A stretch of 64,000 nucleotides of DNA from Eledone cirrhosa (lineage: Eukaryota), in the NCBI GenBank assembly GCA_964016885.1, contig OZ024742.1, forward strand, positions 361,150,001 through 361,214,000, in the 5' to 3' direction. The position numbers and the translations under genes were made by a program. The notes under the pieces were generated by a model, which ran no database searches, was not told where the DNA came from, and was given only the letters and a program-made list of their open reading frames with translations. Of this stretch, positions 400 to 62,698 are shown one piece after another (the first letter of the stretch is position 1; the number at the start of each line of letters is the position of its first letter).

Positions 400-3300
400 G
401 ATAGAGTGGGGATATTAGGATGATAGAGTGGGGATATTTGGATGATAGAGTGGGGATATTAGGATGATAGAGGGGTCACATTAGGATGATAGATCGGTGA
501 CATTAGGATGATAGAGTGGTGATATTAGGATGATAGACTGGGGATATTCGGATGATAGAGTGTGGATATTAGGCTGATAGGGTGTGGATATTAGGATGAT
601 AGAATAGTGATATTAAGATGATAGGGTGGTGACATTAGGATGATCGAGTGGTGACATTAGAATGATAGAGTGGTGATATTAGGAAGATAGAGTGGTGATA
701 TTAGGATGATAGAATGGTGACATTAGGATTATAGGGCGGTGATATTAGGGTGATAGAGTGGTGAAATTAGAATGATAGAGTGGGGACGTTAGGATGATAG
801 AATGGTGATATTAGGATGATAGGGTGGTGATATTAGGGTGATAGAGTGGGGACATTAGGATGATAGAATGGTGACATTAGGATGATAGGGTGGTGATATT
901 AGGGTGATAGAGTGGTGAAATTAAAATGATAGAGTGGTGATATTAGGATGATAGAGTGGTAACATTAGGATGATAGAGGGGTGACATTAGGATGACAGGG
1001 TGGTGATATTAGGATGATAGAGTGGTGATATTAGGAGATAGAGTGGTGACATTAGGATGATAGAGTGGTGATAGTAGGATGATAGAGTGGTGATATTAGG
1101 ATGATAGAGTGGGGATATTAGGATGATAGAGTGGGGATATTACGATGATAGAGTGGTGACATTAGGATGATAGAGTGCTGACATTAGGGTGATAGAGTGG
1201 TGATATTAGGATGATAGAGTGGTGATATTAGGATGATAGAGTGGGGATATTAGGATGATAGAGTGGGGATATTTGGATGATAGAGTGGGGATATTAGGGT
1301 GATAGAGGGGTCACATTAGGATGATAGAGTGGTGACATCAGGATGATAGAGTGGTGACATTAGGATGATAGACTGGGGATATTAGGATGATAGAGTGGGG
1401 ATATTAGGGTGATAGAGTGGTGATATTAGGATGATAGAGGGGTGACATTAGGATGATAGAGTGGGGATATTAGGATGACAGAGTAGGGATATTAGTCTGA
1501 TAGGGTGGGGATATTTGGATGATAGAGTGGTGACATTAGGATGATAGAGTGGTGATATTAGGATGACAGGGTGGTGATATTAGGATGATAGAGTGGTGAT
1601 ATTAGGAGATAGAGTGGTGACATTAGGATGGTAGAGTGGTAACATTAGGATAATAGAGGGGTGCCATTAGGATGATAGAGTGGTAACATTAGGATGATAG
1701 AGTGGTGACATTAGGATGATAGAGTGGTGACATTAGGGTGATAGAATGGTGACATTAGGATGATAGAGTGGTGATATTAGGATGATAGAGTGGTGATATT
1801 AGGATGATAGAGTGGGGATATTAGGATGATAGAGTGGGGATATTTGGATGATAGAGTGGGGATATTAGGGTGATAGAGTGGTGATATTAGGATGATAGAG
1901 TGGTGATATTAGGATGATAGAGTGGGGATATTAGGATGATAGAGTGGGGATATTTGGATGATAGAGTGGGGATATTAGGGTGATAGAGGGGTCACATTAG
2001 GATGATAGAGTGGTGACATTAGGATGATAGAGTGGTGACATTAGGATGATAGACTGGGGATATTAGGATGATAGAGTGGGGATATTAGGCTGATAGGGTG
2101 GGGATATTAGGATGATAGAATGGTGATATTAAGATGATAGAGTTGTGACATTAGGATGATAGAGTGGTGACATTAGGATGATAGAGTGGTGATTTTAGGC
2201 TGATAGAGTGGGGATATTAGGATGATAGAGTGGTGATATTAGGATGATAGAGTGGGGATATTAGGATGATAGAGTGGGGATATTAGGATGATAGAGTGGT
2301 GATATTAGGATGATAGAGTGGGGATATTAGGATGATAGAGTGGGGATATTAGGATGATAGAGTGGTGACATTAGGATGATAGAGTGGTGATATTAGGATG
2401 ATAGAGTGGGGATATTAGGATGATAGAGTGGGGATATTTGGATGATAGAGTGGGGATATTAGGATGATAGAGGGGTCACATTAGGATGATAGATCGGTGA
2501 CATTAGGATGATAGAGTGGTGATATTAGGATGATAGACTGGGGATATTCGGATGATAGAGTGTGGATATTAGGCTGATAGGGTGTGGATATTAGGATGAT
2601 AGAATAGTGATATTAAGATGATAGGGTGGTGACATTAGGATGATCGAGTGGTGACATTAGAATGATAGAGTCGTGATATTAGGAAGATAGAGTGGTGATA
2701 TTAGGATGATAGAATGGTGACATTAGGATTATAGGGCGGTGATATTAGGGTGATAGAGTGGTGAAATTAGAATGATAGAGTGGGGACGTTAGGATGATAG
2801 AATGGTGATATTAGGATGATAGGGTGGTGATATTAGGGTGATAGAGTGGGGACATTAGGATGATAGAATGGTGACATTAGGATGATAGGGTGGTGATATT
2901 AAGGTGATAGAGTGGTGAAATTAAAATGATAGAGTGGTGATATTAGGATGATAGAGTGGTAACATTAGGATGATAGAGGGGTGACATTAGGATGACAGGG
3001 TGGTGATATTAGGATGATAGAGTGGTGATATTAGGAGATAGAGTGGTGACATTAGGATGATAGAGTGGTGATAGTAGGATGATAGAGTGGTGATATTAGG
3101 ATGATAGAGTGGGGATATTAGGATGATAGAGTGGGGATATTACGATGATAGAGTGGTGACATTAGGATGATAGAGTGCTGACATTAGGGTGATAGAGTGG
3201 TGATATTAGGATGATAGAGTGGTGATATTAGGATGATAGAGTGGGGATATTAGGATGATAGAGTGGGGATATTTGGATGATAGAGTGGGGATATTAGGGT

Positions 3301-22546: not shown

Positions 22547-23672
22547 CATCATCATCATCATCACCGTTTTACGTCCGTTCTTCCACGCTAGCATGGGTTA
22601 GACGGGTTGTCCTGTTGTGGGCAGTGTCTGGTCGGCTGACCATGCCTTGCTCATACAGGAACTGATCTGGCTTGATTTCTACAGCTGGATGCCCTTCCTA
22701 ACACCAACCTCATTTACAGTGAGTGCTGGGTGCTTTTTCGTGGCGCCTACACGTCCACTTTACAGTGTGGGCTGGGTGCTTTTTTGCCGTGGCACCTCCA
22801 CGACCACCTTGCGGTGGGGGGGGGGGGCATATTGTTCATATGCTTCAGCATGTACCCATGGGAGGTCGGGTACCCTGTATTACTGCGTGACGCCAGAAGT
22901 CACGGTCATGTGTCATTGACTTTGAGAGGTGTAGTTGGGTAAGGTCGGCTTTTATCACCTCATCCCAAGTCATCTTGGGTCTCCCCACTCCGCGGTTTCC
23001 ATCAACTTCTAGTGCTCTGCACCTTTTTATGCAGCTGTCATCCTTCATACGCATCACATGTCCATACCAGCGTAACCGCCTCTCCTGCACGCAGCATTTG
23101 ATTCCTCTTATGCTCAGTCTCTCTCTCAATTCATTTATGCTTTGTCGTTCACGTATATTACTGTTACACATCCATCGGAGCATGCAGGCTTCGTTTCTCT
23201 CTAATCTACGTAAGTCTTCCACCTTCAGCGCCCAGGTCTCACTACCATGCAACATCGCTGTTCGGATACACGCATCATACAGTCTGCCTTTCATTCTGAG
23301 GGAGAAGCCTTTTGCAGCTAGCAGTGGTAGTAGTTCCCTAAACTTCTTCCATCCCGTTCTTACCCTAGTTATTGTACTTTCTGAGCACCCACCTCCGTTG
23401 CTAATTCGGTCACCTAGGTAGCAGAAGCTGTCTACTGTTTCTACAGGGCCCTCCCAGAGATTGGTGGTACTTGTTTCCTGTGGCTGTTTGCTTGCTGTTT
23501 CAGCACAGCTGCTGCATGTGAATCCTACATTCTTAATTAAGCTTCCTGAGATCCCGCTACATCTCTTGTGTACCCATTGTTTGCATTTGGGGCAAAGAAT
23601 GGAGTTCCTACCTACACCTTTCCTACATACTGAGCAAGGCTATTTCCCTGAGGGGATCTGGGTTCTGTTTTC
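22547..23672 (-). mobile_element. 5'-truncated RTE-clade LINE (subfamily distinct from the 30-41 kb copies) with (GAT)n tail and 7-bp TSD TTGTGAT
   Basis: RTE C-terminal peptide (LHGSETW...RRLRWYGHVMR...GRPKMTW), 3' UTR and tail. TTGTGAT at 22540-22546 and 23673-23679. The empty site is present in the other macro-repeat copies (~26120, ~29062). Confidence 0.95.
22845..23672 (-). pseudogene. RTE ORF C-terminal remnant including the PHD-like finger; W-to-stop change at ~23640
   Basis: The minus strand reads SGK*PCSVCRKGVGRNSILCPKCKQWVHKRC. The ORF track 22845..23294 gives the C-terminus. Confidence 0.9.
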
Positions 23673-29814: not shown

Positions 29815-32800
29815 TCATCATCATCATCATCAACGTTTAACGTCCGTGTTCCACGCTTGCATGGGTTTGGACGGGGGTAGTCCCACTTGAGGCAAGAGTG
29901 ATTGTCTTGCTCGCATAGGACTGTCTGGCAGGTTTTCTACAGTTGGATGCCCTTCCTAACACCAACCACATTTACAGTGTGGGTCTGGGAGGTTTTTACC
30001 GTGTTGCCTACACGGCCACATTACAGCGTGGACTGTGTGTTTTTTTGTCGTGACACCTACACGATCTCATTTGTTTCGGCCTCGATGGCGCGGCACCAAC
30101 ATAACTTTACATAGAACGGGGTGGTGTGGATCGGGTGGGGGTGGTGGTGGTGGGACGGGGTGTATTTTGTTAGAGATGCCTACTGGCTGGAGTAGGTTTT
30201 ACTATATATTTAGGTAAGGCGGGTCTTCTCTGTTACTGAGTACCGCCAAAGGTCTCGGTCCAGTGACATTGTCTTGGAGAGGTGTAAGTGTGTGACGTCG
30301 GAGTTTATCAGCTCGTCCCAGGTTTTTCTAGGTCTGCCTATTCCGTGACTACCGTCTATCTTTATTGCCCTGCACTTTGTTATACAGCTATCGACTTTCA
30401 TGCGCATCACGTGTCCATACCAACGTAGCCTTCTCTCGAGTAAACAACATCTGATCCCTCTTATCTCTAATTTTTTCCTTAGTTCGTTTATGCTTTGCCG
30501 TTCACGTATATTACTGTTACACATCCAGCGGAGCATGCAAGCTTCGTTCCTCTCTAGTCTGCGTATATCCTCTGCACACAATGCCCAGGTCTCACTACCA
30601 TGCAGCATTGCTGTTCGTATGCAGGCATCGTACAACCTGCCTTTCATTTTTAGTGAGAACCCTTTAGCAGCTAATAGTGGTATAAGCTCTCTGAACTTTT
30701 TCCAACCAGTTCTGACTCTAGCTACAGTACTTTCAGAGCACCCTCCCCCACTGCTGATTTTATCGCCCAGGTAACGGAAGCTGTCCACTATTTCTATAGA
30801 ACCCTCTGCGCAATTGAAAGAGCTAGTAGTTTGTGGGCACTTGCTGCTACTTATTGCACCAGAGCACCGGCCACATGTAAAATCTATGTTCTTAGTTAGC
30901 TTACCTGTGATCCCACTACATCTTTTATGCACCCATACTTTGCATTTAGGACATAAAATGGAGTTTCTACCTACGCCTTTCCTACACACCGAGCACGACC
31001 ATTTCCCAGAAGGGACCGCCGCCTTGTTTTCTTTCCTACAAACTAGTACTTTGGTCTTAGCCAGGTTAATTTTAAGTCCTTTTGACTCTAGGCCGTGCTT
31101 CCATGTTTGGAATTTCTTCTCTAGCTCGGCCATTGATTCCGCTATGAGTGTCAGGTCGTCTGCGTATAGGAGTTCCCATGGGCAGCCTGTCTTGAACTCC
31201 TCTGTTATAGCCTGAAGGGCAATAATAAATAGTAGTGGACTGAGAACAGAGCCCTGATGGACGCCAACTTTTACGCTAAACTCTTCACTATATTCGTTGT
31301 TAATTCTAACCTTGCTGACTGTTTCTTTATACATGGCTTGTATAGCCCTCACAAGCCATTCGTCAACGCCTAGTTTTCTAAGAGCCCACCAGATAATGGA
31401 GCGGGGGACTCTGTCGAAGGCTTTCTCCAAGTCGACAAAAGCTAAGTAGAGGGGTTTACCTTTAGCTAGGTACTTCTCCTGTAGTTGTCGTACTATGAAA
31501 AGAGCGTCTGTGGTACTTTTGCCTGAAACAAACCCGAACTGCATTTCATCTAGGTCAATTCTCTCTCTGATTAGTTGCGCTATTACTTTTTCCGTGACCT
31601 TCATGACCTGGTCGATTAATTTAATGCCTCTATAGTTACTCCTATCTAGGGCGTCTCCTTTACCCTTATAACAGTTAACGATGATGCTGCTATGCCAGTC
31701 CTTCGGAACAACCCCATTCTGTACGACTTGGTTAACTATGCGGGTGACCATGGTGTGTCCCACCGTGCCAGATGCCTTCAGCATCTCAGCAACTATTTCC
31801 GAAGGCCCAGCCGCCTTACCAGTCTTCATATCCTTGATTGCCTTACTTATTATACTCCCCTCGACTAACACTGCTGGTCCCTCTATTGGGTCGATATGGG
31901 GGAGACTGCCTTTCTCCCAATTATTCTCCTCATTTAGTAGCCTTTCATAGTGACACTTCCAAGCTACCTTCTTATCAGCGTCGGTGATGGCAAGTGTGCC
32001 ATCGTCGTTTAGTACACACTTCTCCCCGACAATATCACGGTTTTCCTTGACGCATTGCCTAGCAATCCTGAACACCTCACGTTTTTGGTCATCGCGTTGT
32101 AGAACATGCTTGAACTTTCTTTCCTCAGCTTCCCTTCTTGCTAAGTACACTTCTCTCCTAGCTTCCCTCCTGGCCACTTGATAGTCCTCTCTACTTCCCC
32201 CATCCCGCCATACTTTCCAAGCCTGCTTTTTGGCCTTAATTGACCCCTCCACCTTACTGTTCCACCACCATGTTACTCTCCTCCTGCCTACAGGCCTGCT
32301 CCAGCCACAGACCTCGTCTGTCGCCAACAGCAGGTTTGCTTTCAGAAATTCCCACTCTCCCTCTATATTGTCCGACTCTAAATGTTCTTCCTTACTGTCG
32401 AAAGCATCAAGTAATATGCTTTGAAATTTATTCCTGGCTGTGGGGTCCTTTAGCTTCCATATTTTCCTCCTGAGGATAGTCCTCTTCTGTTGTCGAGTAC
32501 GTCTCGTCCTGACTATGAGGTCGCTAATTATCAGTCTATGTTGGGAGGTGCATTCTTCATGGGGGAGGGATTTAGTGTTAACAACAGACACTCTGTCACG
32601 TCTTCTGGTAAGGATATAATCTACCTGGCTTGTGTGTTCCCCGGATCTATAGGTGATCAGGTGATTGTCACGTTTTTTGAAGTTAGTGTTACAGATAGTT
32701 AGGTTATTTGCATCACAGAATTCCAGGATTCTGGAGCCTTCCTCATTTCTAGTACCAAACCCATAGCCTCCATGGATTTCGTCGTAGCCGTCACAATGTT

Positions 32801-33218
32801 GTCCAACGTGACCATTTAGGTCGCCTGCGATAATTATATAGTCACTGTCGGATATTTGGGAGGTAGTTAGCATCAGTGTCTCATAGAATCTGTCTTTTAT
32901 AGTGCCGGGCAGTCCGGATTGGGGTGCGTACGCAGATATTACTGTCACCGTAGTTCTATTGAGGACAAGTCGTATTTTAATTATTCTGTCGTTCACTCTA
33001 TTTACGTCTATTATCTTATCTGCCCACTTTTCTGCTACCATGATTCCTACTCCACCCAGCCCATCGTCGTTTCCCACCCAGAAAAGCTTATAACATCGTT
33101 TTTTACCCTCAATGAACCTAGCAGACCCACCCCTCCACCTGGTCTCTTGAATACAACAAACATCGACCTCCTTACGTTCAAGCATTTCTACAACCTCGTT
33201 AGCGCGACCCTTTAGGGT
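29815..33218 (-). mobile_element. Near full-length young RTE-clade LINE, slightly 5'-truncated, with (GAT)n tail and 7-bp TSD GTAATCA
   Basis: GTAATCA at 29808-29814 and 33219-33225. The empty site GATATTGGTAATCAAAAAGAAAA is at ~26840. The ORF is uninterrupted. Confidence 0.97.
30210..33218 (-). CDS. RTE ORF: APE endonuclease + reverse transcriptase with internal PHD-type finger; frame open up to the 5' junction (TLKGRANEVVE precedes the first Met at 33185)
   Basis: EN motifs CIQETRW, AGDLNGHVG, SQVDYIL and SQHRL. RT motifs DLEKAFD, GVHQGSVLSPLLF, YADD and FRYLG. C-terminal RRLRWYGHV and GRPRKTW. The first EN motif (NV) is cut off. Confidence 0.96.
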   Translation of the reverse strand, partial: TLKGRANEVVEMLERKEVDVCCIQETRWRGGSARFIEGKKRCYKLFWVGNDDGLGGVGIMVAEKWADKIIDVNRVNDRIIKIRLVLNRTTVTVISAYAPQSGLPGTIKDRFYETLMLTTSQISDSDYIIIAGDLNGHVGQHCDGYDEIHGGYGFGTRNEEGSRILEFCDANNLTICNTNFKKRDNHLITYRSGEHTSQVDYILTRRRDRVSVVNTKSLPHEECTSQHRLIISDLIVRTRRTRQQKRTILRRKIWKLKDPTARNKFQSILLDAFDSKEEHLESDNIEGEWEFLKANLLLATDEVCGWSRPVGRRRVTWWWNSKVEGSIKAKKQAWKVWRDGGSREDYQVARREARREVYLARREAEERKFKHVLQRDDQKREVFRIARQCVKENRDIVGEKCVLNDDGTLAITDADKKVAWKCHYERLLNEENNWEKGSLPHIDPIEGPAVLVEGSIISKAIKDMKTGKAAGPSEIVAEMLKASGTVGHTMVTRIVNQVVQNGVVPKDWHSSIIVNCYKGKGDALDRSNYRGIKLIDQVMKVTEKVIAQLIRERIDLDEMQFGFVSGKSTTDALFIVRQLQEKYLAKGKPLYLAFVDLEKAFDRVPRSIIWWALRKLGVDEWLVRAIQAMYKETVSKVRINNEYSEEFSVKVGVHQGSVLSPLLFIIALQAITEEFKTGCPWELLYADDLTLIAESMAELEKKFQTWKHGLESKGLKINLAKTKVLVCRKENKAAVPSGKWSCSVCRKGVGRNSILCPKCKVWVHKRCSGITGKLTKNIDFTCGRCSGAISSSKCPQTTSSFNCAEGSIEIVDSFRYLGDKISSGGGCSESTVARVRTGWKKFRELIPLLAAKGFSLKMKGRLYDACIRTAMLHGSETWALCAEDIRRLERNEACMLRWMCNSNIRERQSINELRKKLEIRGIRCCLLERRLRWYGHVMRMKVDSCITKCRAIKIDGSHGIGRPRKTWDELINSDVTHLHLSKTMSLDRDLWRYSVTEKTRLT

Positions 33219-34059
33219 GTAATCAAAAAGAAAAAAAAAAGAAAGATCTGATATTGTGATGATAAAGTGATGATATATTGATGTTATTGTGATGTTCTAT
33301 TGTGACTATATTGTTATGATATAGTGAAGATATTTTGATGCTATTATGTTGATATTGGTAATCAAAAATGATATTGTCATGTTGAAGTTTTACTGATGAT
33401 ATTGATGATTTGGTGGTATTGTGATGAGATTGTGAAGAGATTGTGATGAGATTGTGGATAAATGGTGATGATATTTGGTAATACTGATGTTATTGTGGTG
33501 ATATTATGAAGATATTGGTAATAAAAAAATGAAAAAAAGAAAAAAAAAAAAAGAAAAAAGAAGAGAAAAAAGGAAAAGAAAAAAATATGTTCGTTGTGAT
33601 ACAGTAGTGATATTGTGATGGTAGTAATATGGTATTGATGATATTGAAAATATTGCTAACAAAACAACATGGAAAAAAGAAATGAAAGAGAAAATAAAAA
33701 AATAAAAAAATTGTGATATATTTATGATATTGTGGTGATAGTGGTGATATTGATGATATATTGATGAAACTGATGATATTGTGATTATATTGACGATATA
33801 ATGATGATACTGTATGATATCGCGATGATATTGCGATGATATATTGATATTTTTATGATATTGTTATGATATTGTCATGATATTCTGATGATACTATGAT
33901 GATATGGTGATTGTATGGCAGTGATATTGATGATATTGTGAAGATATTGGTAACCAAAATCGAAAAAAAGAAGAAAAAATGAAAAAAGAGAAAAAAAAGA
34001 AAAGTAGTAAAAGAAAAAAATGTGATATTGTGATGGTAGTGATATGGTATTGATGATAT

Positions 34060-35892: not shown

Positions 35893-38800
35893 ATAATAGA
35901 CGTAAATAGAGTGAACGACAGAATAATTAAAATACGACTTGTCCTCAATAGAACTACGGTGACAGTAATATCTGCGTACGCACCCCAATCCGGACTGCCC
36001 GGCACTATAAAAGACAGATTCTATGAGACACTGATGCTCACTACATCCCAAATATCTGACAGTGACTATATAATTATTGCAGGCGACCTAAATGGTCATG
36101 TTGGGCAACATTGTGACGGCTACGACGAAATCCATGGAGGCTATGGGTTTGGTACTAGAAATGAGGAAGGCTCCAGAATCCTGGAATTCTGTGATGCAAA
36201 TAACCTAACTATCTGTAACACTAACTTCAAAAAACGTGACAATCACCTGATCACCTATAGATCCGGGGAACACACAAGCCAGGTAGATTATATCCTTACC
36301 AGAAGACGTGACAGAGTGTCTGTTGTAAACACTAAATCCCTCCCCCATGAAGAATGCACCTCCCAACATAGACTGATAATTAGCGACCTCATAGTCAGGA
36401 CGAGACGTACTCGACAGCAGAAGAGGACTATCCTCAGGAGAAAAATATGGAAGCTAAAGGACCCCACAGCCAAAAATAAATTTCAAAACATATTACTTGA
36501 TGCTTTCGACAGTAAGGAAGAACATTTAGAGTCGGACAATATAGAGGGACAGTGGGAATTTCTGAAAGCAAACCTGCTGTTGGCGACAGACGAAGTCTGT
36601 GGCTGGAGCAGGCCTGTAGGCAGGAGGAGAGTAACATGGTGGTGGAACAGTAAGGTGGAGGGGTCAATTAAGGCCAAAAAGCAGGCTTGGAAAGTATGGC
36701 GGGATGGGGGAAGTAGAGTAGACTATCAAGTGGCCAGGAGGGAAGCTAGGAGAGAAGTGTACTTAGCAAGAAGGGAAGCTGAGGAAAGAAAGTTCAAGCA
36801 TGTCCTACAACGCGATGACCAAAAACGTGAGGTGTTCAGGATTGCTAGGCAATACGTCAAGGAAAACCGTGATATTGTCGGGGAGAAGTGTGTACTTAAC
36901 GATGATGGCATACTTGCCATCACCGACACTGATAAGAAGGTAGCTTGGAAGTGTCACTATGAAAGGCTACTAAATGAGGAGAATAAATGGGAGAAAGACA
37001 GTCTCCCCCATGTCGACCCAATAGAGGGACCAGCAGTGTTAGTCGAGGGGAGTATAATAAGTAAGGCAATCAAGGATATGAAGACAGGTAAGGCGGCTGG
37101 GCCTTCGGAAATAGTTGCTGAGATGCTGAAGGCATCTGGCACGGTGGGACACACCATGGTCACCCGCATAGTTAACCAAGTCGTACAGAATGGGGTTGTT
37201 CCGAAGGACTGGCATAGCAGCATCATCCTTAACTGTTATAAGGGTAAAGGAGACGCCCTAGATAGGAGTAACTATAGAGGCATTAAATTAATCGACCAGG
37301 TCATGAAGGTCACGGAAAAAGTAATAGCGCAACTAATCAGAGAGAGAATTGACCTAGATGAAATGCAGTTCGGGTTTGTGTCAGGCAAAAGTACCACAAA
37401 CGCTCTTTTCATAGTACGACAACTACAGGAGAAGTTCCTAGCTAAAGGTAAACCCCTCTACTTAGCTTTTGTCGACCTGGAGAAAGCCTTCGACAGAGTC
37501 CCCCGCTCCATTATCTGGTGGGCTCTTAGAAAACTAGGCGTTGACGAATGGCTTGTGAGGGCCATACAAGCCATGTATAAAGAAACAGTCAGCAAGGTTA
37601 GAATTAACAACGAATATAGTGAAGAGTTTAGCGTAAAAGTTGGCGTCCATCAGGGCTCTGTTCTCAGCCCCCTACTATTTATTATTGCCCTTCAGGCTAT
37701 AACAGAGGAGTTCAAGACAGGCTGCCCATGGGAACTCCTATACGCAGACGACCTGACACTCATAGCGGAATCAATGGCCGAGCTAGAGAAGAAATTCCAA
37801 ACATGGAAGCACGGCCTAGAGTCAAAAGGACTTAAAATTAACCTGGCTAAGACCAAAGTTCTAGTTTGTAGGAAAGAAAACAAGGCGGCGGTCCCTTCTG
37901 GGAAATGGTCGTGCTCGGTGTGTAGGAAAGGCGTAGGTAGAAACTCCATTTTATGTCCTAAATGCAAAGTATGGGTGCATAAAAGATGTAGTGGGATCAC
38001 AGGTAAGCTAACTAAGAACATAGATTTTACATGTGGCCGGTGTTCTGGTGCAATAAGTAGCAGCAAGTGCCCACAAAATACTAGCTCTTTCAATTGCGCA
38101 GAGGGTTCTATAGAAATAGTGGACAGCTTCCGTTACCTGGGCGATAAAATCAGCAGTGGGGGAGGGTGCTCTGAAAGTACTGTAGCTAGAGTCAGAACTG
38201 GTTGGAAAAAGTTCAGAGAACTTATACCACTATTAGCTGCTAAAGGGTTCTCCCTAAAAATGAAAGGCAGGTTGTACGATGCCTGCATACGAACAGCAAT
38301 GTTGCATGGCAGTGAGACCTGGGCATTGTGTGCAGAGGATATACGCAGACTAGAGAGGAACGAAGCTTGCATGCTCCGCTGGATGTGTAACAGTAATATA
38401 CGTGAACGGCAAAGCATAAACGAACTAAGGAAAAAATTAGAGATAAGAGGGATCAGATGTTGTTTACTCGAGAGAAGGCTACGTTGGTATGGACACGTGA
38501 TGCGCATGAAAGACGATAGCTGTATAACAAAGTGCAGGGCAATAAAGATAGACGGTAGCCACGGAATAGGCAGACCTAGAAAAACCTGGGACGAGCTGAT
38601 AAACTCCGACCTCACACACTTACACCTCTCCAAGACAATGTCACTGGACCGAGACCTTTGGCGGTACTCAGTAACAGAGAAGACCCGCCTTGCCAGTAGG
38701 CATCTCTAACAAAATACACCCCGTCCCGCCACCACCCCCACCCATCCACACCACCCCGTCCTATGTAAAGTTATGTTGGTGCCGCGCCATCGAGGCCGAA

Positions 38801-39275: not shown

Positions 39276-40325
39276 AATCACGCCTTTATAGACATCGTTA
39301 TTCGATAAAACATGAACACCAGCGTTATGTAACAACACTCGCAGACAATGCTTGGCAGCTGCGTGAAAATAACCCACAATTTCACCTAAAATGGGATATA
39401 ATAGCGTCTGCCCCCCCATAGTCCAATGGACAGGAATTTTGTAAATTATGTAATGTAGAATTATTTTGTATTATGAAATCCAAAAACATTTTATTAAGTA
39501 ACAGAATAGAGCGATCGTTATACTGTAACCATCGCTTAAAATCTACATTTTCATATTATAAATACTACCAGGATTGAACGCCTGTCTCCATCCCCGTTTG
39601 ATTGTCAAAATAGATATGAACATTCTTTATTAGTCTTAATTCTATCAACTCTTCTATTATTTACCTTTTAATACAAACTGCTAGAGATAAAATGAGATTT
39701 CTGATTTCTTGATTCAATTCCCTAGTGCATATACCAGCTGGATACTAGCATTGATGTTATTTAGTAGCAATCGAAATCTCCCCCTTCCCCAATTGACACT
39801 TTATAATTAATACTACTGCACCAAATGACCAGCCCTGTCCACTGTCCAGTTGGTCAAGTAGAGATTAAAATTGGCACTCCCAAAATTCTTATTTAGATTT
39901 ACTCATGGTATTCTCATTAAAAACCCATTATATACTTGTTTAACAGTAAATTATTTTACCATCTGTCATATTCTATCCCCTCTGTTCCTTCCTCTTTTAC
40001 TAATATAAATACTTCAATTTTTCTGATTTTATCCAGTTTATCCAAAATCTCTGAAGAAGTGACAACTGATTATACATTTGCTTTCGAATACTTGCTAACA
40101 TTATATGATTACGCAAGCAGCGATACATAGGTATTCGGTCTGTTACAGAAACATATGTCAATACCTAATAAATTCCTTTTTTAACAAAAGCACTTTCATT
40201 TTATATTCATCCTTTCTACATTTCTCCGGAATATAATTTATACTCGTTGAGCAAACCTGCACGTACGCTGTTCATCTCTAACGTAACGATATATTATCAC
40301 TACATTATTGATAACCTGAAATTTT
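39276..40325 (+). mobile_element. Penelope-like element 3' remnant: GIY-YIG endonuclease C-terminal half plus pLTR-like region with a decayed hammerhead
   Basis: From 39281 it reads [84 protein letters not shown]. This matches the PLE pattern R..H..SF...T.LS..IW.L....KW.I....C.LC..E....LN.R.E....C.H. CTGAAGA at 40051 and GAAACATATGTC at 40148-40159. Confidence 0.8.
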
Positions 40326-40413
40326 ATATATATATATAGATATATATATACATCCATATATATATACATCCATATATATATATATATATATATATACATC
40401 CATATATATATAT

Positions 40414-41283
40414 ATATTAGCTGCTAAAGGGTTCTCCCTAAAAATGAAAGGCAGGTTGTACGATGCCTGCATACGAACAGCAATGCTGCATGGCAGTGAG
40501 ACCTGGGCATTGTGTGCAGAGGATATACGCAGACTAGAGAGGAACGAAGCTTGCATGCTCCGCTGGATGTGTAACAGTAATATACGTGAACGGCAAAGCA
40601 TAAACGAACTAAGGAAAAAATTAGAGATAAGAGGGATCAGATGTTGTTTACTCGAGAGAAGGCTACGTTGGTATGGACATGTGATGCGCATGAAAGTCGA
40701 TAGCTGTATAACAAAGTGCAGGGCAATAAAGATAGACGGTAGTCACGGAATAGGCAGACCTAGAAAAACCTGGGACGAGCTGATAAACTCCGACGTCACA
40801 CACTTACACCTCTCCAAGACAATGTCACTGGACCGAGACCTTTGGCGGTACTCAGTAACAGAGAAGACCCGCCTTACCTAAATATATAGTAAAACCTACT
40901 CCAGCCAGTAGGCATCTCTAACAAAATACACCCCGTCCCACCACCACCACCCCCACCCGATCCACACCACCCCGTTCTATGTAAAGTTATGTTGGTGCCG
41001 CGCCATCGAGGCCGAAACAAATGAGATCGTGTAGGTGTCACGACAAAAAAACACACAGTCCACGCTGTAATGTGGCCGTGTAGGCAACACGGTAAAAACC
41101 TCCCAGACCCACACTGTAAATGTGGTTGGTGTTAGGAAGGGCATCCAACTGTAGAAAACCTGCCAGACAGTCCTATGCGAGCAAGACAATCACTCTTGCC
41201 TCAAGTGGGACTACCCCCGTCCAAACCCATGCAAGCGTGGAACACGGACGTTAAACGTTGATGATGATGATGATGATGATGAT
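40414..41283 (+). mobile_element. 5'-truncated young RTE LINE (C-terminus, 3' UTR and (GAT)n) inserted in (TA)n
   Basis: ORF 40444..40881 is identical at protein level to the C-terminus of the 30210 ORF. Confidence 0.96.
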
Positions 41284-61350: not shown

Positions 61351-61416
<66 letters not shown>

Positions 61417-61544
61417 GCAAAAATTCTATTTAAAGTTGTTAGGATACAAGTAAATATTTTTATAACTGATATAAAGCACTCAACAAGTTTTTGGAGTAGA
61501 TATACAATATTAATACATGGAAACTATATTTATAAAACCATATT

Positions 61545-61609
61545 TATTTCATTATACATATTTCAGGGATACCATATTAAATTATGGTATGCCTTCATCA
61601 GACAAAATA
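61545..61609 (-). ncRNA. Type I hammerhead ribozyme (inverted copy)
   Basis: Exact reverse complement of 62314-62378. Confidence 0.8.
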
Positions 61610-62313
61610 CAATATATAACAGTTTTACAATTAGCTTTGACGTACCCTTTAAAATACAACCATTACTTTCGGAGGCTGTCTGGATAGTGAATTGTTTATA
61701 TTGTTTTAATAAGTCATAGTGTTAAGCACAGTTAGAAAAAGACGGAGATAAAGAAAAAGAAAAAGAAAAAAGACGGAGAGAGAGAAAAGAACAAAGACGG
61801 AGAGAGAGAAAGATAGAAATAAAAACCTGGAGAAATATCGGAGAGAGAGAGAAATGTATGGAGAAAAGAAAGAGATAAATAACGGAGAGAGAGCGAAATG
61901 TATGGAGAAAAGAAAGAGATAAATAACGGAGAGAGAGCGAAATGTATGGAGAAAAGAAAGAGATAAATAAAGATAGGAGGAAATAAAAATAAAAAAATAA
62001 AAAAGAAAGAAAAGGAAGAAATAGGAAAAACAAAGGAAAGCAACAGAGAGATATAAAGTCATCATACAGAGAGAAAAACTCAAGAGAGAGAAATACTATA
62101 TAGAGAGAGGGGGTGCAATGAAAACATTACGTCATGTCATATTAAGTTGAGTTAACAATTTATATGAAATGAATAATAAAAATATAAGTATCAATATTCA
62201 TGAATGGGACATAGATATATAATATGAGAAATTAAACATTGATCAAGCCTCCGAAAGTAATGGTTGTATTTTAAAGGGTACGTCAAAGCTATTTGTAAAA
62301 CTGTTATATATTG

Positions 62314-62378
62314 TATTTTGTCTGATGAAGGCATACCATAATTTAATATGGTATCCCTGAAATATGTATAATGAAATA
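62314..62378 (+). ncRNA. Type I hammerhead ribozyme; predicted cleavage after AUA at 62370
   Basis: Stem I TATTTTGT/ATGAAATA (8 bp, 2 G-U); core CTGATGA; stem II AGGCATACCATA-ATTTAA-TATGGTATCCCT (one C-C mismatch); GAAA; minimal near-palindromic stem III ATATGTAT; H17=A. Confidence 0.8.
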
Positions 62379-62417
62379 AATATGGTTTTATAAATATAGT
62401 TTCCATTTATTAATATC

Positions 62418-62468
<51 letters not shown>

Positions 62469-62587
62469 TAAATTTAGCGAGAATTGCATATATATATATA
62501 TATATATATAACGAAGGAAATGTGGTAAGGAACCAGGTGGACCATAACGCACCAAAGTACTCAATACTTAGGGTAGTAGAGTGGGTA

Positions 62588-62698
62588 ATAGGAACGAGTA
62601 GGACCCCGACGGCTGAGCTCAAGCCGTTTCGACGGCTAATTCTAGAATTAGCCGTTAAACGGCTTGAGCTCAGCCGTCGGGGTCCTACTCGTTCCTAT
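62588..62698. repeat. 111-bp near-perfect palindrome made of a hammerhead 3' half folded back at stem II
   Basis: Centre TTCT|AGAA at 62643/62644, with only one G-T pair and one bulge. The minus strand has GCCGTC-GAAA-CGGCT TGAGCTC AGCCG-TC-GGGGTCC. Confidence 0.9.

What the first reader, a model, noticed from the sequence alone, without database searches (positions are those of the whole stretch)
61517..62406. Young inverted pair of intact-looking hammerhead ribozymes on opposite strands (PLE inverted pLTR / ribozyme cassette)
Seen: 161-bp arms with a single mismatch and a 568-bp purine-rich non-coding spacer, the whole unit sitting between long (TA)n tracts. Each arm has a full type I core with an 8-bp stem I, a long stem II and a minimal near-palindromic stem III. 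Established: PLE hammerheads with tiny palindromic stem III cleave as dimers, and PLEs often show inverted partial terminal repeats. Inference: a transcript in either direction would meet an antisense copy first and a sense ribozyme second, so the long hairpin would compete with ribozyme folding. This could be a self-silencing or switch-like arrangement, or a recent non-autonomous PLE/retrozyme insertion.
Basis: partly seen in the sequence, partly recalled or inferred. Interest (0 to 1): 0.72.

Follow-up and report, generated by a model that had tools for sequence, protein, structure and literature searches.

The report
Penelope retrotransposon stub with inverted end
The two back-to-back hammerhead ribozyme motifs are the duplicated, inverted tail end of a very common Penelope-type jumping gene; this copy is a one-off truncated insertion whose motifs are predicted not to fold in a read-through RNA, so it is likely an ordinary scar rather than an RNA switch.

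Summary
Observation confirmed: 161-nt arms with 1 mismatch (173 nt with 3 at full extent), a 568-nt spacer, and a type I hammerhead motif in each arm. It is not a dedicated cassette. The arm is the 3' end (pLTR) of an abundant Penelope-like element (PLE): 2,873 exact copies of the 44-nt motif in this genome, collinear with a telomerase-like RT plus GIY-YIG-type ORF in 29 of 30 loci examined. The protein carries the Hydra-clade signatures. The window holds the last ~830 nt of the element (minus strand; the 'spacer' is its 3' UTR), joined head to head to an inverted pLTR, inside (TA)n. This junction occurs once in the genome. Inverted pLTRs, one-sided tails and opposite-strand hammerhead pairs 100-700 bp apart are published (PMC4209133, PMC8557442). 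Stem II covaries among relatives, but in a read-through RNA the arm duplex abolishes the fold. Mechanistic residue: the family has two fixed 3' ends about 90 nt apart, and 39 of 42 inverted insertions carry one of each, none two alike. This points to twin priming from both target strands. The scan noted the same kind of element before, in this and other genomes.

The parts
61354..61413 (.). (TA)30 target microsatellite, left side
   Evidence: TRF
61417..61504 (-). 88-nt one-sided tail ending at the family's 'long' 3' end; in tandem copies this sequence runs on into the 5' UTR, about 50 nt before the ORF's ATG
61505..61677 (-). left arm: pLTR at the 3' end of the truncated main body
61545..61609 (-). 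type I hammerhead motif, left copy (predicted cut between 61553 and 61552)
   Evidence: mirror of the right copy, no mismatch inside
61678..62245 (-). the 'spacer': distal part of the element's 3' UTR, pyrimidine-rich in the element's sense, 5'-truncated at 62245 about 1 kb downstream of the ORF stop
   Evidence: collinear with EN-3' UTR-pLTR in other copies
62239..62246 (.). head-to-head inversion junction: 8-nt palindrome, 1-nt microhomology at 62246; unique in the genome
62246..62418 (+). right arm: inverted, 5'-truncated pLTR ending at the family's 'short' 3' end, no tail
62314..62378 (+). type I hammerhead motif, right copy: stem I 62314-62321/62371-62378, core 62322-62328, stem II 62329-62358, GAAA 62359-62362, predicted cut after 62370
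62419..62464 (.). (TA)n target microsatellite, right side

Best explanation
This is a 5'-truncated insertion of an abundant Penelope-like retrotransposon, likely of the Hydra clade, with its usual inverted terminal piece, likely made when the element's enzyme primed two cDNAs from the two nicked strands of a (TA)n target. SHOWN: the arm is the 3' end of an RT+EN element; the family has two fixed 3' ends; inverted insertions carry one of each; this junction is unique. INFERRED: the endonuclease nicks both strands of (TA)n; one 3'-OH starts at the 'long' site and the other at the 'short' site of the pLTR RNA (each site coincides with a TATAT/ATATAT word that could anneal to the target); both cDNAs stop early (here after about 830 and 173 nt) and are joined head to head. 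The hammerheads are passengers of the pLTR. In the parent element they likely cut multimeric RNA as dimers or with help from the protein. In this copy they lie on opposite strands, so they cannot form the cis dimer, and a read-through RNA is predicted to zip into a 173-bp duplex.
For: Motif count 1457+1416 exact matches, control 0. Of the first 100 listed, 44 sit in 22 head-to-head pairs within 5 kb (counted by hand). EN-3' UTR-arm collinear in 20 of 20 and 9 of 10 extended loci, that is all 30 loci; one of them is the query's own locus. Model of the ORF (pLDDT 88) matches telomerase RT first (Foldseek 3du5, E 4.7e-9; VIA-align 9swo Z 16.6, rmsd 5.2, 338 aligned, tied with 6zdp and DRT2). Motifs RWR, DKT, YRDD, CxCx5C, VVY..YVG, CxxC..E, N..CxH fit the Hydra description (PMC8557442 section 11). 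126 of 135 pLTR ends fall at two positions; a TA run follows 55 of 61 short ends and 57 of the 62 long ends that do not run on into the ORF. 39 of 42 head-to-head pairs are long+short, 0 long+long, 0 short+short; in 3 pairs one end is odd or cut. The longer arm has the long end in 17 and the short end in 22. Junction pattern matches once. Arm duplex -267 kcal/mol, ribozyme pair probabilities 0.0 in the whole insertion.
Against: No Pfam hit for the ORF and no PDB sequence hit. The EN domain is supported by motifs only, since the fold searches were filled by the RT part. No tree with published Hydra sequences was built. Rfam does not recognise the motif. The unit (about 4.0-4.2 kb) is longer than the '<3 kb' given for most Hydra families. 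No copy with a complete start-to-stop ORF was seen among the loci scanned. The priming steps are inferred from genomic scars; target-site duplications cannot be read inside (TA)n. Loci were the top hits of three queries, not a random sample.
Confidence: 0.9

Rival explanations
1. The unit is a non-autonomous element (retrozyme- or MITE-like) that moves as a whole, arms and spacer together.
For: Sharp boundaries in (TA)n, long inverted arms, high copy number of the arm. A preprint abstract argues that animal retrozymes derive from PLE pLTRs (10.64898/2026.07.22.740005).
Against: The junction occurs once. 39 paired insertions span 270-5112 nt with different junctions. The ends are asymmetric (tail on one side). 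The spacer is ordinary 3' UTR of the autonomous element. No head-to-tail array of short motif-bearing monomers was seen in the loci fetched.
Confidence: 0.03
2. The pair is a selected RNA switch in which the hairpin and the ribozyme fold compete.
For: Both motifs are intact; stem II covaries in the family (8 of 10 pairs with two-sided changes).
Against: Covariation reflects the parent element's history, not this locus. The sense arm starts pairing about 70 nt before the ribozyme is transcribed (sequence), and the duplex is -267 kcal/mol against about -10 for the constrained ribozyme fold. Even alone, stem I (p<=0.09) and stem III (p=0) are not predicted to form. No host coding exon was evident: the long ORFs at 22-64 kb are LINE-like or low-complexity.
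Confidence: 0.02
3. Same origin as the best explanation, but the inversion arose by self-priming or template switching of one cDNA (fold-back at a palindrome) rather than by two target-primed cDNAs.
For: An 8-nt palindrome sits at the junction; PMC3846280 (passages) reads junction palindromes as self-priming on an antisense template.
Against: A simple fold-back would join equivalent positions; here the junction joins position 1 to position 569 of the monomer. It also does not by itself explain why the two outer ends are always of different type (39 of 39 classifiable pairs).
Confidence: 0.2
4. The insertion is a neutral scar that, when read through, gives a long hairpin feeding small-RNA silencing of the family as a by-product.
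For: 173-bp near-perfect duplex; hundreds of such pairs are expected genome-wide (extrapolated).
Against: No expression evidence was obtained; compatible with the best explanation, not an alternative origin.
Confidence: 0.2

Closest known systems
Hydra clade of C-terminal EN+ Penelope-like elements, including Hydra-1_Obim from Octopus bimaculoides (Craig et al. 2021, PMC8557442: passages, section 11, supplement look-ups)
   Same: RT then C-terminal GIY-YIG-type EN; RW[K/R], DKT, CxCx5C, no Cys pair between GIY and YIG, CxxC and CxH beside E and N; hammerhead near the 3' end; (TA)n target.
   Different: A separate family: N-terminal protein sequence and ribozyme differ by eye from Hydra-1_Obim as printed in the supplement (no identity computed). 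Unit about 4.0-4.2 kb with a 3' UTR near 1.7-1.9 kb, against 2,507 bp. Clear pLTRs, tandem and inverted forms are present, whereas Hydra-1_Obim is annotated 'no pLTR'.
Complex PLE insertions: inverted 5'-truncated pLTR plus one-sided tail (PMC8557442 Fig. 2 legend; PMC3846280 passages)
   Same: Head-to-head inverted pLTR, tail on one end only, tail equal to the sequence that follows the pLTR towards the ORF.
   Different: Tail is 88-91 nt, not 30-40 nt, and stops about 50 nt short of the ATG instead of lying inside the ORF.
Opposite-strand dual minimal hammerheads of truncated PLEs (Cervera and De la Pena 2014, PMC4209133: parts 1-2 of 4 read)
   Same: Two motifs 100-700 bp apart on opposite strands, long stem II, tiny palindromic stem III; the paper reports no monomer cleavage and low dimer cleavage for a Schistosoma example.
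   Different: Longer stem I (8 pairs), A-U rather than the usual G-C at the base of stem II, and no extra unpaired base before stem II.
Poseidon element PAc of Anolis (Frangieh et al. 2024, PMC11167929: parts 1-2 of 4 read)
   Same: Two internal RT start sites that define the tail; the protein cuts and extends both target strands; the hammerhead is dispensable for insertion and cuts only with protein.
   Different: PAc starts at sites reported as non-homologous to the cut DNA and inside the ORF; here both sites lie upstream of the ORF on TA-like words matching the target.

Membership tests
EN+ Penelope-like elements | Telomerase-like RT in the parent element | tested here: met
   Model matches TERT first in Foldseek and VIA-align (tied with DRT2); YRDD in 113 of 113 homologues
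EN+ Penelope-like elements | GIY-YIG endonuclease in the same ORF | tested here: inconclusive
   VVY..YVG with following R, H, E, N motifs conserved in homologues; no Pfam or fold match for this domain, which was not folded alone
EN+ Penelope-like elements | pLTRs in direct and inverted arrangement, with a one-sided tail | tested here: met
   Direct pLTR before the ORF in L061, L062, L063, L126; 42 inverted pairs
EN+ Penelope-like elements | Hammerhead motif in the pLTR | tested here: met
Hydra clade | RWK motif near the N-terminus | tested here: met
   RWR variant in L062 and L126; RW[KR] pattern in 69 of 113 homologues, many lacking the N-terminus
Hydra clade | DKT in place of DKG | tested here: met
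   KSDKTNNLY; DK[TS] in 111 of 113 homologues
Hydra clade | CxCx5C linker; CCHH motif absent; CxxC and CxH beside catalytic E and N | tested here: met
   CNCRNKSNC; one Cys only between VVY and YVG; CDLC..E and N..CCRH; CxCx5C in 104 of 113 homologues
Hydra clade | Insertion into (TA)n | tested here: met
   112 of 123 terminal ends at the two fixed positions are followed by a TA run
Hydra clade | Phylogenetic placement with published Hydra RTs | not tested
   Reference sequences were seen only as cut text in a supplement
Hydra clade | Generally under 3 kb (descriptive, not diagnostic) | tested here: not met
   Unit about 4.0-4.2 kb
Naiad/Chlamys | N-terminal EN, no canonical hammerhead | tested here: not met
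   EN motifs are C-terminal and a full motif is present
Type I hammerhead ribozyme | Conserved core with three stems | tested here: met
   Core letters invariant in 34 of 34 distinct variants; 96% of cells paired; 0 of 500 shuffles as high. Variants were picked by a descriptor that demands the core, stem I and the base of stem II, so those counts are biased; distal stem II pairs were not selected.
Type I hammerhead ribozyme | Self-cleavage | not testable with these tools
   Folding predicts an unstable monomer
Non-LTR retrozyme | Short non-coding monomers in head-to-tail arrays that spread as a unit | tested here: not met
   Head-to-head pair, unique junction

The most novel reading that the evidence does not exclude
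This Hydra-type family records the PLE integration mechanism at genome scale: the protein (probably a dimer) primes two cDNAs at once from the two strands of a nicked (TA)n target, always one at each of two TA-like words 88-91 nt apart in the pLTR RNA. That would make the inverted pLTR plus one-sided tail a twin-priming product, with target-template pairing explaining (TA)n specificity, unlike the non-homologous priming reported for Poseidon.
Probability: 0.5. Interest if true: 0.45.

Novelty: new member of a known kind. Interest (0 to 1): 0.17.

Why it matters
As a locus it is ordinary: one of probably several hundred such scars. The family is useful as test material. It is recently active, has thousands of near-identical ends, and shows a strict one-long, one-short rule, so it could test directly how PLE inverted repeats and tails form, which PMC8557442 and PMC11167929 leave open.

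Tried and rejected
Rfam at gathering score and at E<=10: no hammerhead family. Pfam and PDB sequence searches of the ORF and homologues: nothing useful; the precomputed PF26215 on many homologues could not be named. No GIY-YIG structure was listed in the whole-protein fold searches, which the RT part filled. Sequencing runs: no RNA holder listed, so no reads were laid. Naiad membership, my first guess from recalled RT motifs, was dropped because the EN motifs are C-terminal. Cleaved RNA as main template: none of 44 unselected truncated arms starts at the predicted cut (nearest 13 nt upstream and 9 nt downstream), so no support. Short ribozyme words from this family and the neighbouring one were not found in the Craig supplement text, where long runs are cut. 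Literature searches; none of the listings showed this family or 'twin priming' applied to PLEs, but the library lacks most subscription papers (older PLE reviews) that may state it. bioRxiv supplements were not seen.

Full report
OBSERVATION. The arms extend to 61505-61677 / 62246-62418 (173 nt, 3 mismatches). Each holds a type I hammerhead motif: stem I 62314-62321/62371-62378 (two G-U pairs), CUGAUGA, a 10-pair stem II, GAAA, a 3-pair near-palindromic stem III and an AUA triplet, predicted cut after 62370. A descriptor finds only these two in the window and none in 100 resamples of 24 kb. Rfam does not score them.

WHAT IT BELONGS TO. The arm is a dispersed repeat: 1,118 first-look candidates, 40 scored, 98-100% identical, and 2,873 exact matches to a 44-nt ribozyme pattern against 0 for the control. 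I call the reverse complement of 61414-62245 the monomer M (832 nt; core at M645). Other copies extend M upstream into a GIY-YIG-type EN and an RT. Searching with that EN region gave 30 loci. All 30 were extended to 7-9 kb, and 29 run EN, 3' UTR, arm in one orientation (20 of 20; 9 of 10; one is the query's own locus). Four loci (L061, L062, L063, L126) have a direct pLTR running into the ORF start, with the ATG about 50 nt after the long end. So the window holds the last ~830 nt of the element on the minus strand, the 'spacer' being 3' UTR, fused head to head to an inverted copy of M569-743.

THE PROTEIN. A 630-aa natural ORF piece (L065) has 520 homologues among 7,992 candidates scored; the best named one is from Argonauta hians, 41% identical. 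With a 3.0-Gb genome this suggests an octopod host (inference). The model (pLDDT 88) matches telomerase RT first (DRT2 is tied). Motifs RWR, DKT, YRDD, CxCx5C, no Cys pair between VVY and YVG, CxxC..E and N..CxH are those given for the Hydra clade (PMC8557442 section 11). Its supplement lists Hydra-1_Obim, whose printed protein start and ribozyme differ from this family. Limits: no Pfam or PDB sequence hit, EN not folded alone, no tree, and no complete ORF among the copies scanned.

HOW THE PAIR AROSE. Of 135 pLTR ends (de-duplicated by local sequence; a few repeats may remain), 61 stop near M743-749 and 65 near M831; 3 of the latter run on into the ORF side, and 9 ends are elsewhere. TA runs follow 55 of 61 and 57 of 62. 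The element reads TATAT at the short site and ATATAT at the long site. Of 42 head-to-head pairs with at least 90% element coverage, 39 have one long and one short end, none has two alike, and 3 have an odd or cut end. The longer arm carries the long end in 17 and the short end in 22; sizes run 270-5112 nt and junctions differ. The window's junction matches once in the genome. Among the first 100 motif matches listed, 44 are in 22 head-to-head pairs within 5 kb (hand count). The loci are top hits of three queries, so these are not census figures. Inference: both strands of a (TA)n target are nicked and each primes a cDNA at one of the two sites; the cDNAs stop early and are joined. This fits the Anolis PLE, which extends both strands and starts at two internal sites that define the tail (PMC11167929, parts 1-2 of 4), though there the start sites are reported as non-homologous to the target. 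Self-priming at junction palindromes (PMC3846280 passages) remains a rival; an 8-nt palindrome does sit at this junction.

THE RIBOZYME. In 34 distinct variants from this and related families the core is invariant and 8 of 10 stem II pairs show two-sided changes; 0 of 500 shuffles reach the score, and slid controls fall to 34-55% pairing against 96%. The variants were picked by a descriptor and are related, which inflates this; two further motif families were left out of the alignment. The fold has probably been maintained in the lineage. In this copy, folding predicts stem II only (stem I p<=0.09, stem III 0), a stem III self-duplex of -2.2 kcal/mol, and in the whole insertion an arm duplex of -267 kcal/mol with all ribozyme pairs at 0.0. 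Opposite-strand copies cannot form the cis dimer. No unselected arm of 44 starts at the cut site, while 11 (one listed twice) start at M555-569, where the window's right arm also starts; this may mark an RNA 5' end or a stop site and is untested.

AGE. The right arm is identical to three other loci over 161 nt; the body's last 312 nt are 96.5% identical to the nearest other copy. The family is recent and this copy has a few private changes.

WHAT IS KNOWN. PMC4209133 (parts 1-2 of 4) already reports dual minimal hammerheads about 100-700 bp apart on opposite strands as probable truncated PLEs, with no monomer cleavage and low dimer cleavage. PMC8557442 (passages) describes the inverted 5'-truncated copy and the 30-40-bp one-sided tail. 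The retrozyme preprint was seen as abstract and outline only. Six earlier unreviewed notes of this scan reach the same reading on other DNA; they are not independent support.

VERDICT. Real, but an ordinary integration product of a probably undescribed Hydra-type PLE family. What differs from print, as far as reach, is the 88-91-nt tail, the long 3' UTR and the strict one-long, one-short rule. Interest 0.17.

Noticed in passing
window 62511-62698: A second, unrelated repeat in the next TA run, with the same layout: near-perfect palindrome (62590-62698) plus a ~79-nt one-sided tail; 729 first-look candidates, 40 scored at 99-100%. It has a GAAAC..GUC half-hammerhead but no CUGANGA within 70 nt upstream in any of the 25 rows listed, and copies truncate at almost the same point. 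Its tail has an ACTC..GAGT hairpin like the main family's. Parent element not sought.
   Followed up: partly
monomer positions M548-581 (window 62246 is M569): 5' truncations cluster here, also in 79-85% diverged copies not selected by the query; possible transcription start or RT stop.
   Followed up: partly
window 1-21917: Satellite of a 22-nt unit, about 1,000 copies, GC skew near 0.9, decaying into related 11-31-nt repeats up to 34.8 kb.
   Followed up: no
window 30210-33296 (-), 35893-38709 (+), fragments at 22845-23639 and 40315-40881: Open EN-RT reading frames of 1028 and 938 aa that look like an RTE-type LINE (label recalled, not tested); the two long copies are nearly identical and point away from each other.
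   Followed up: no
L069, about 1046-2434 (+): ORF of another Hydra-like PLE family 500 nt from a copy of this family.
   Followed up: no
L003, L009, L037, L049, L027, L054, L085, L119: At least three further hammerhead-bearing families, several as palindromic stubs in TA runs.
   Followed up: partly
L003, L004, L009 (G000:C2 164.26-164.40 Mb): Three copies with shared flanks about 70 kb apart: a segmental tandem duplication, not separate insertions.
   Followed up: no
L065 ORF residues 374-419: Asparagine-rich, low-confidence insert between RT thumb and linker, recalling the N-rich inserts of rotifer Penelopes in PMC3846280.
   Followed up: no
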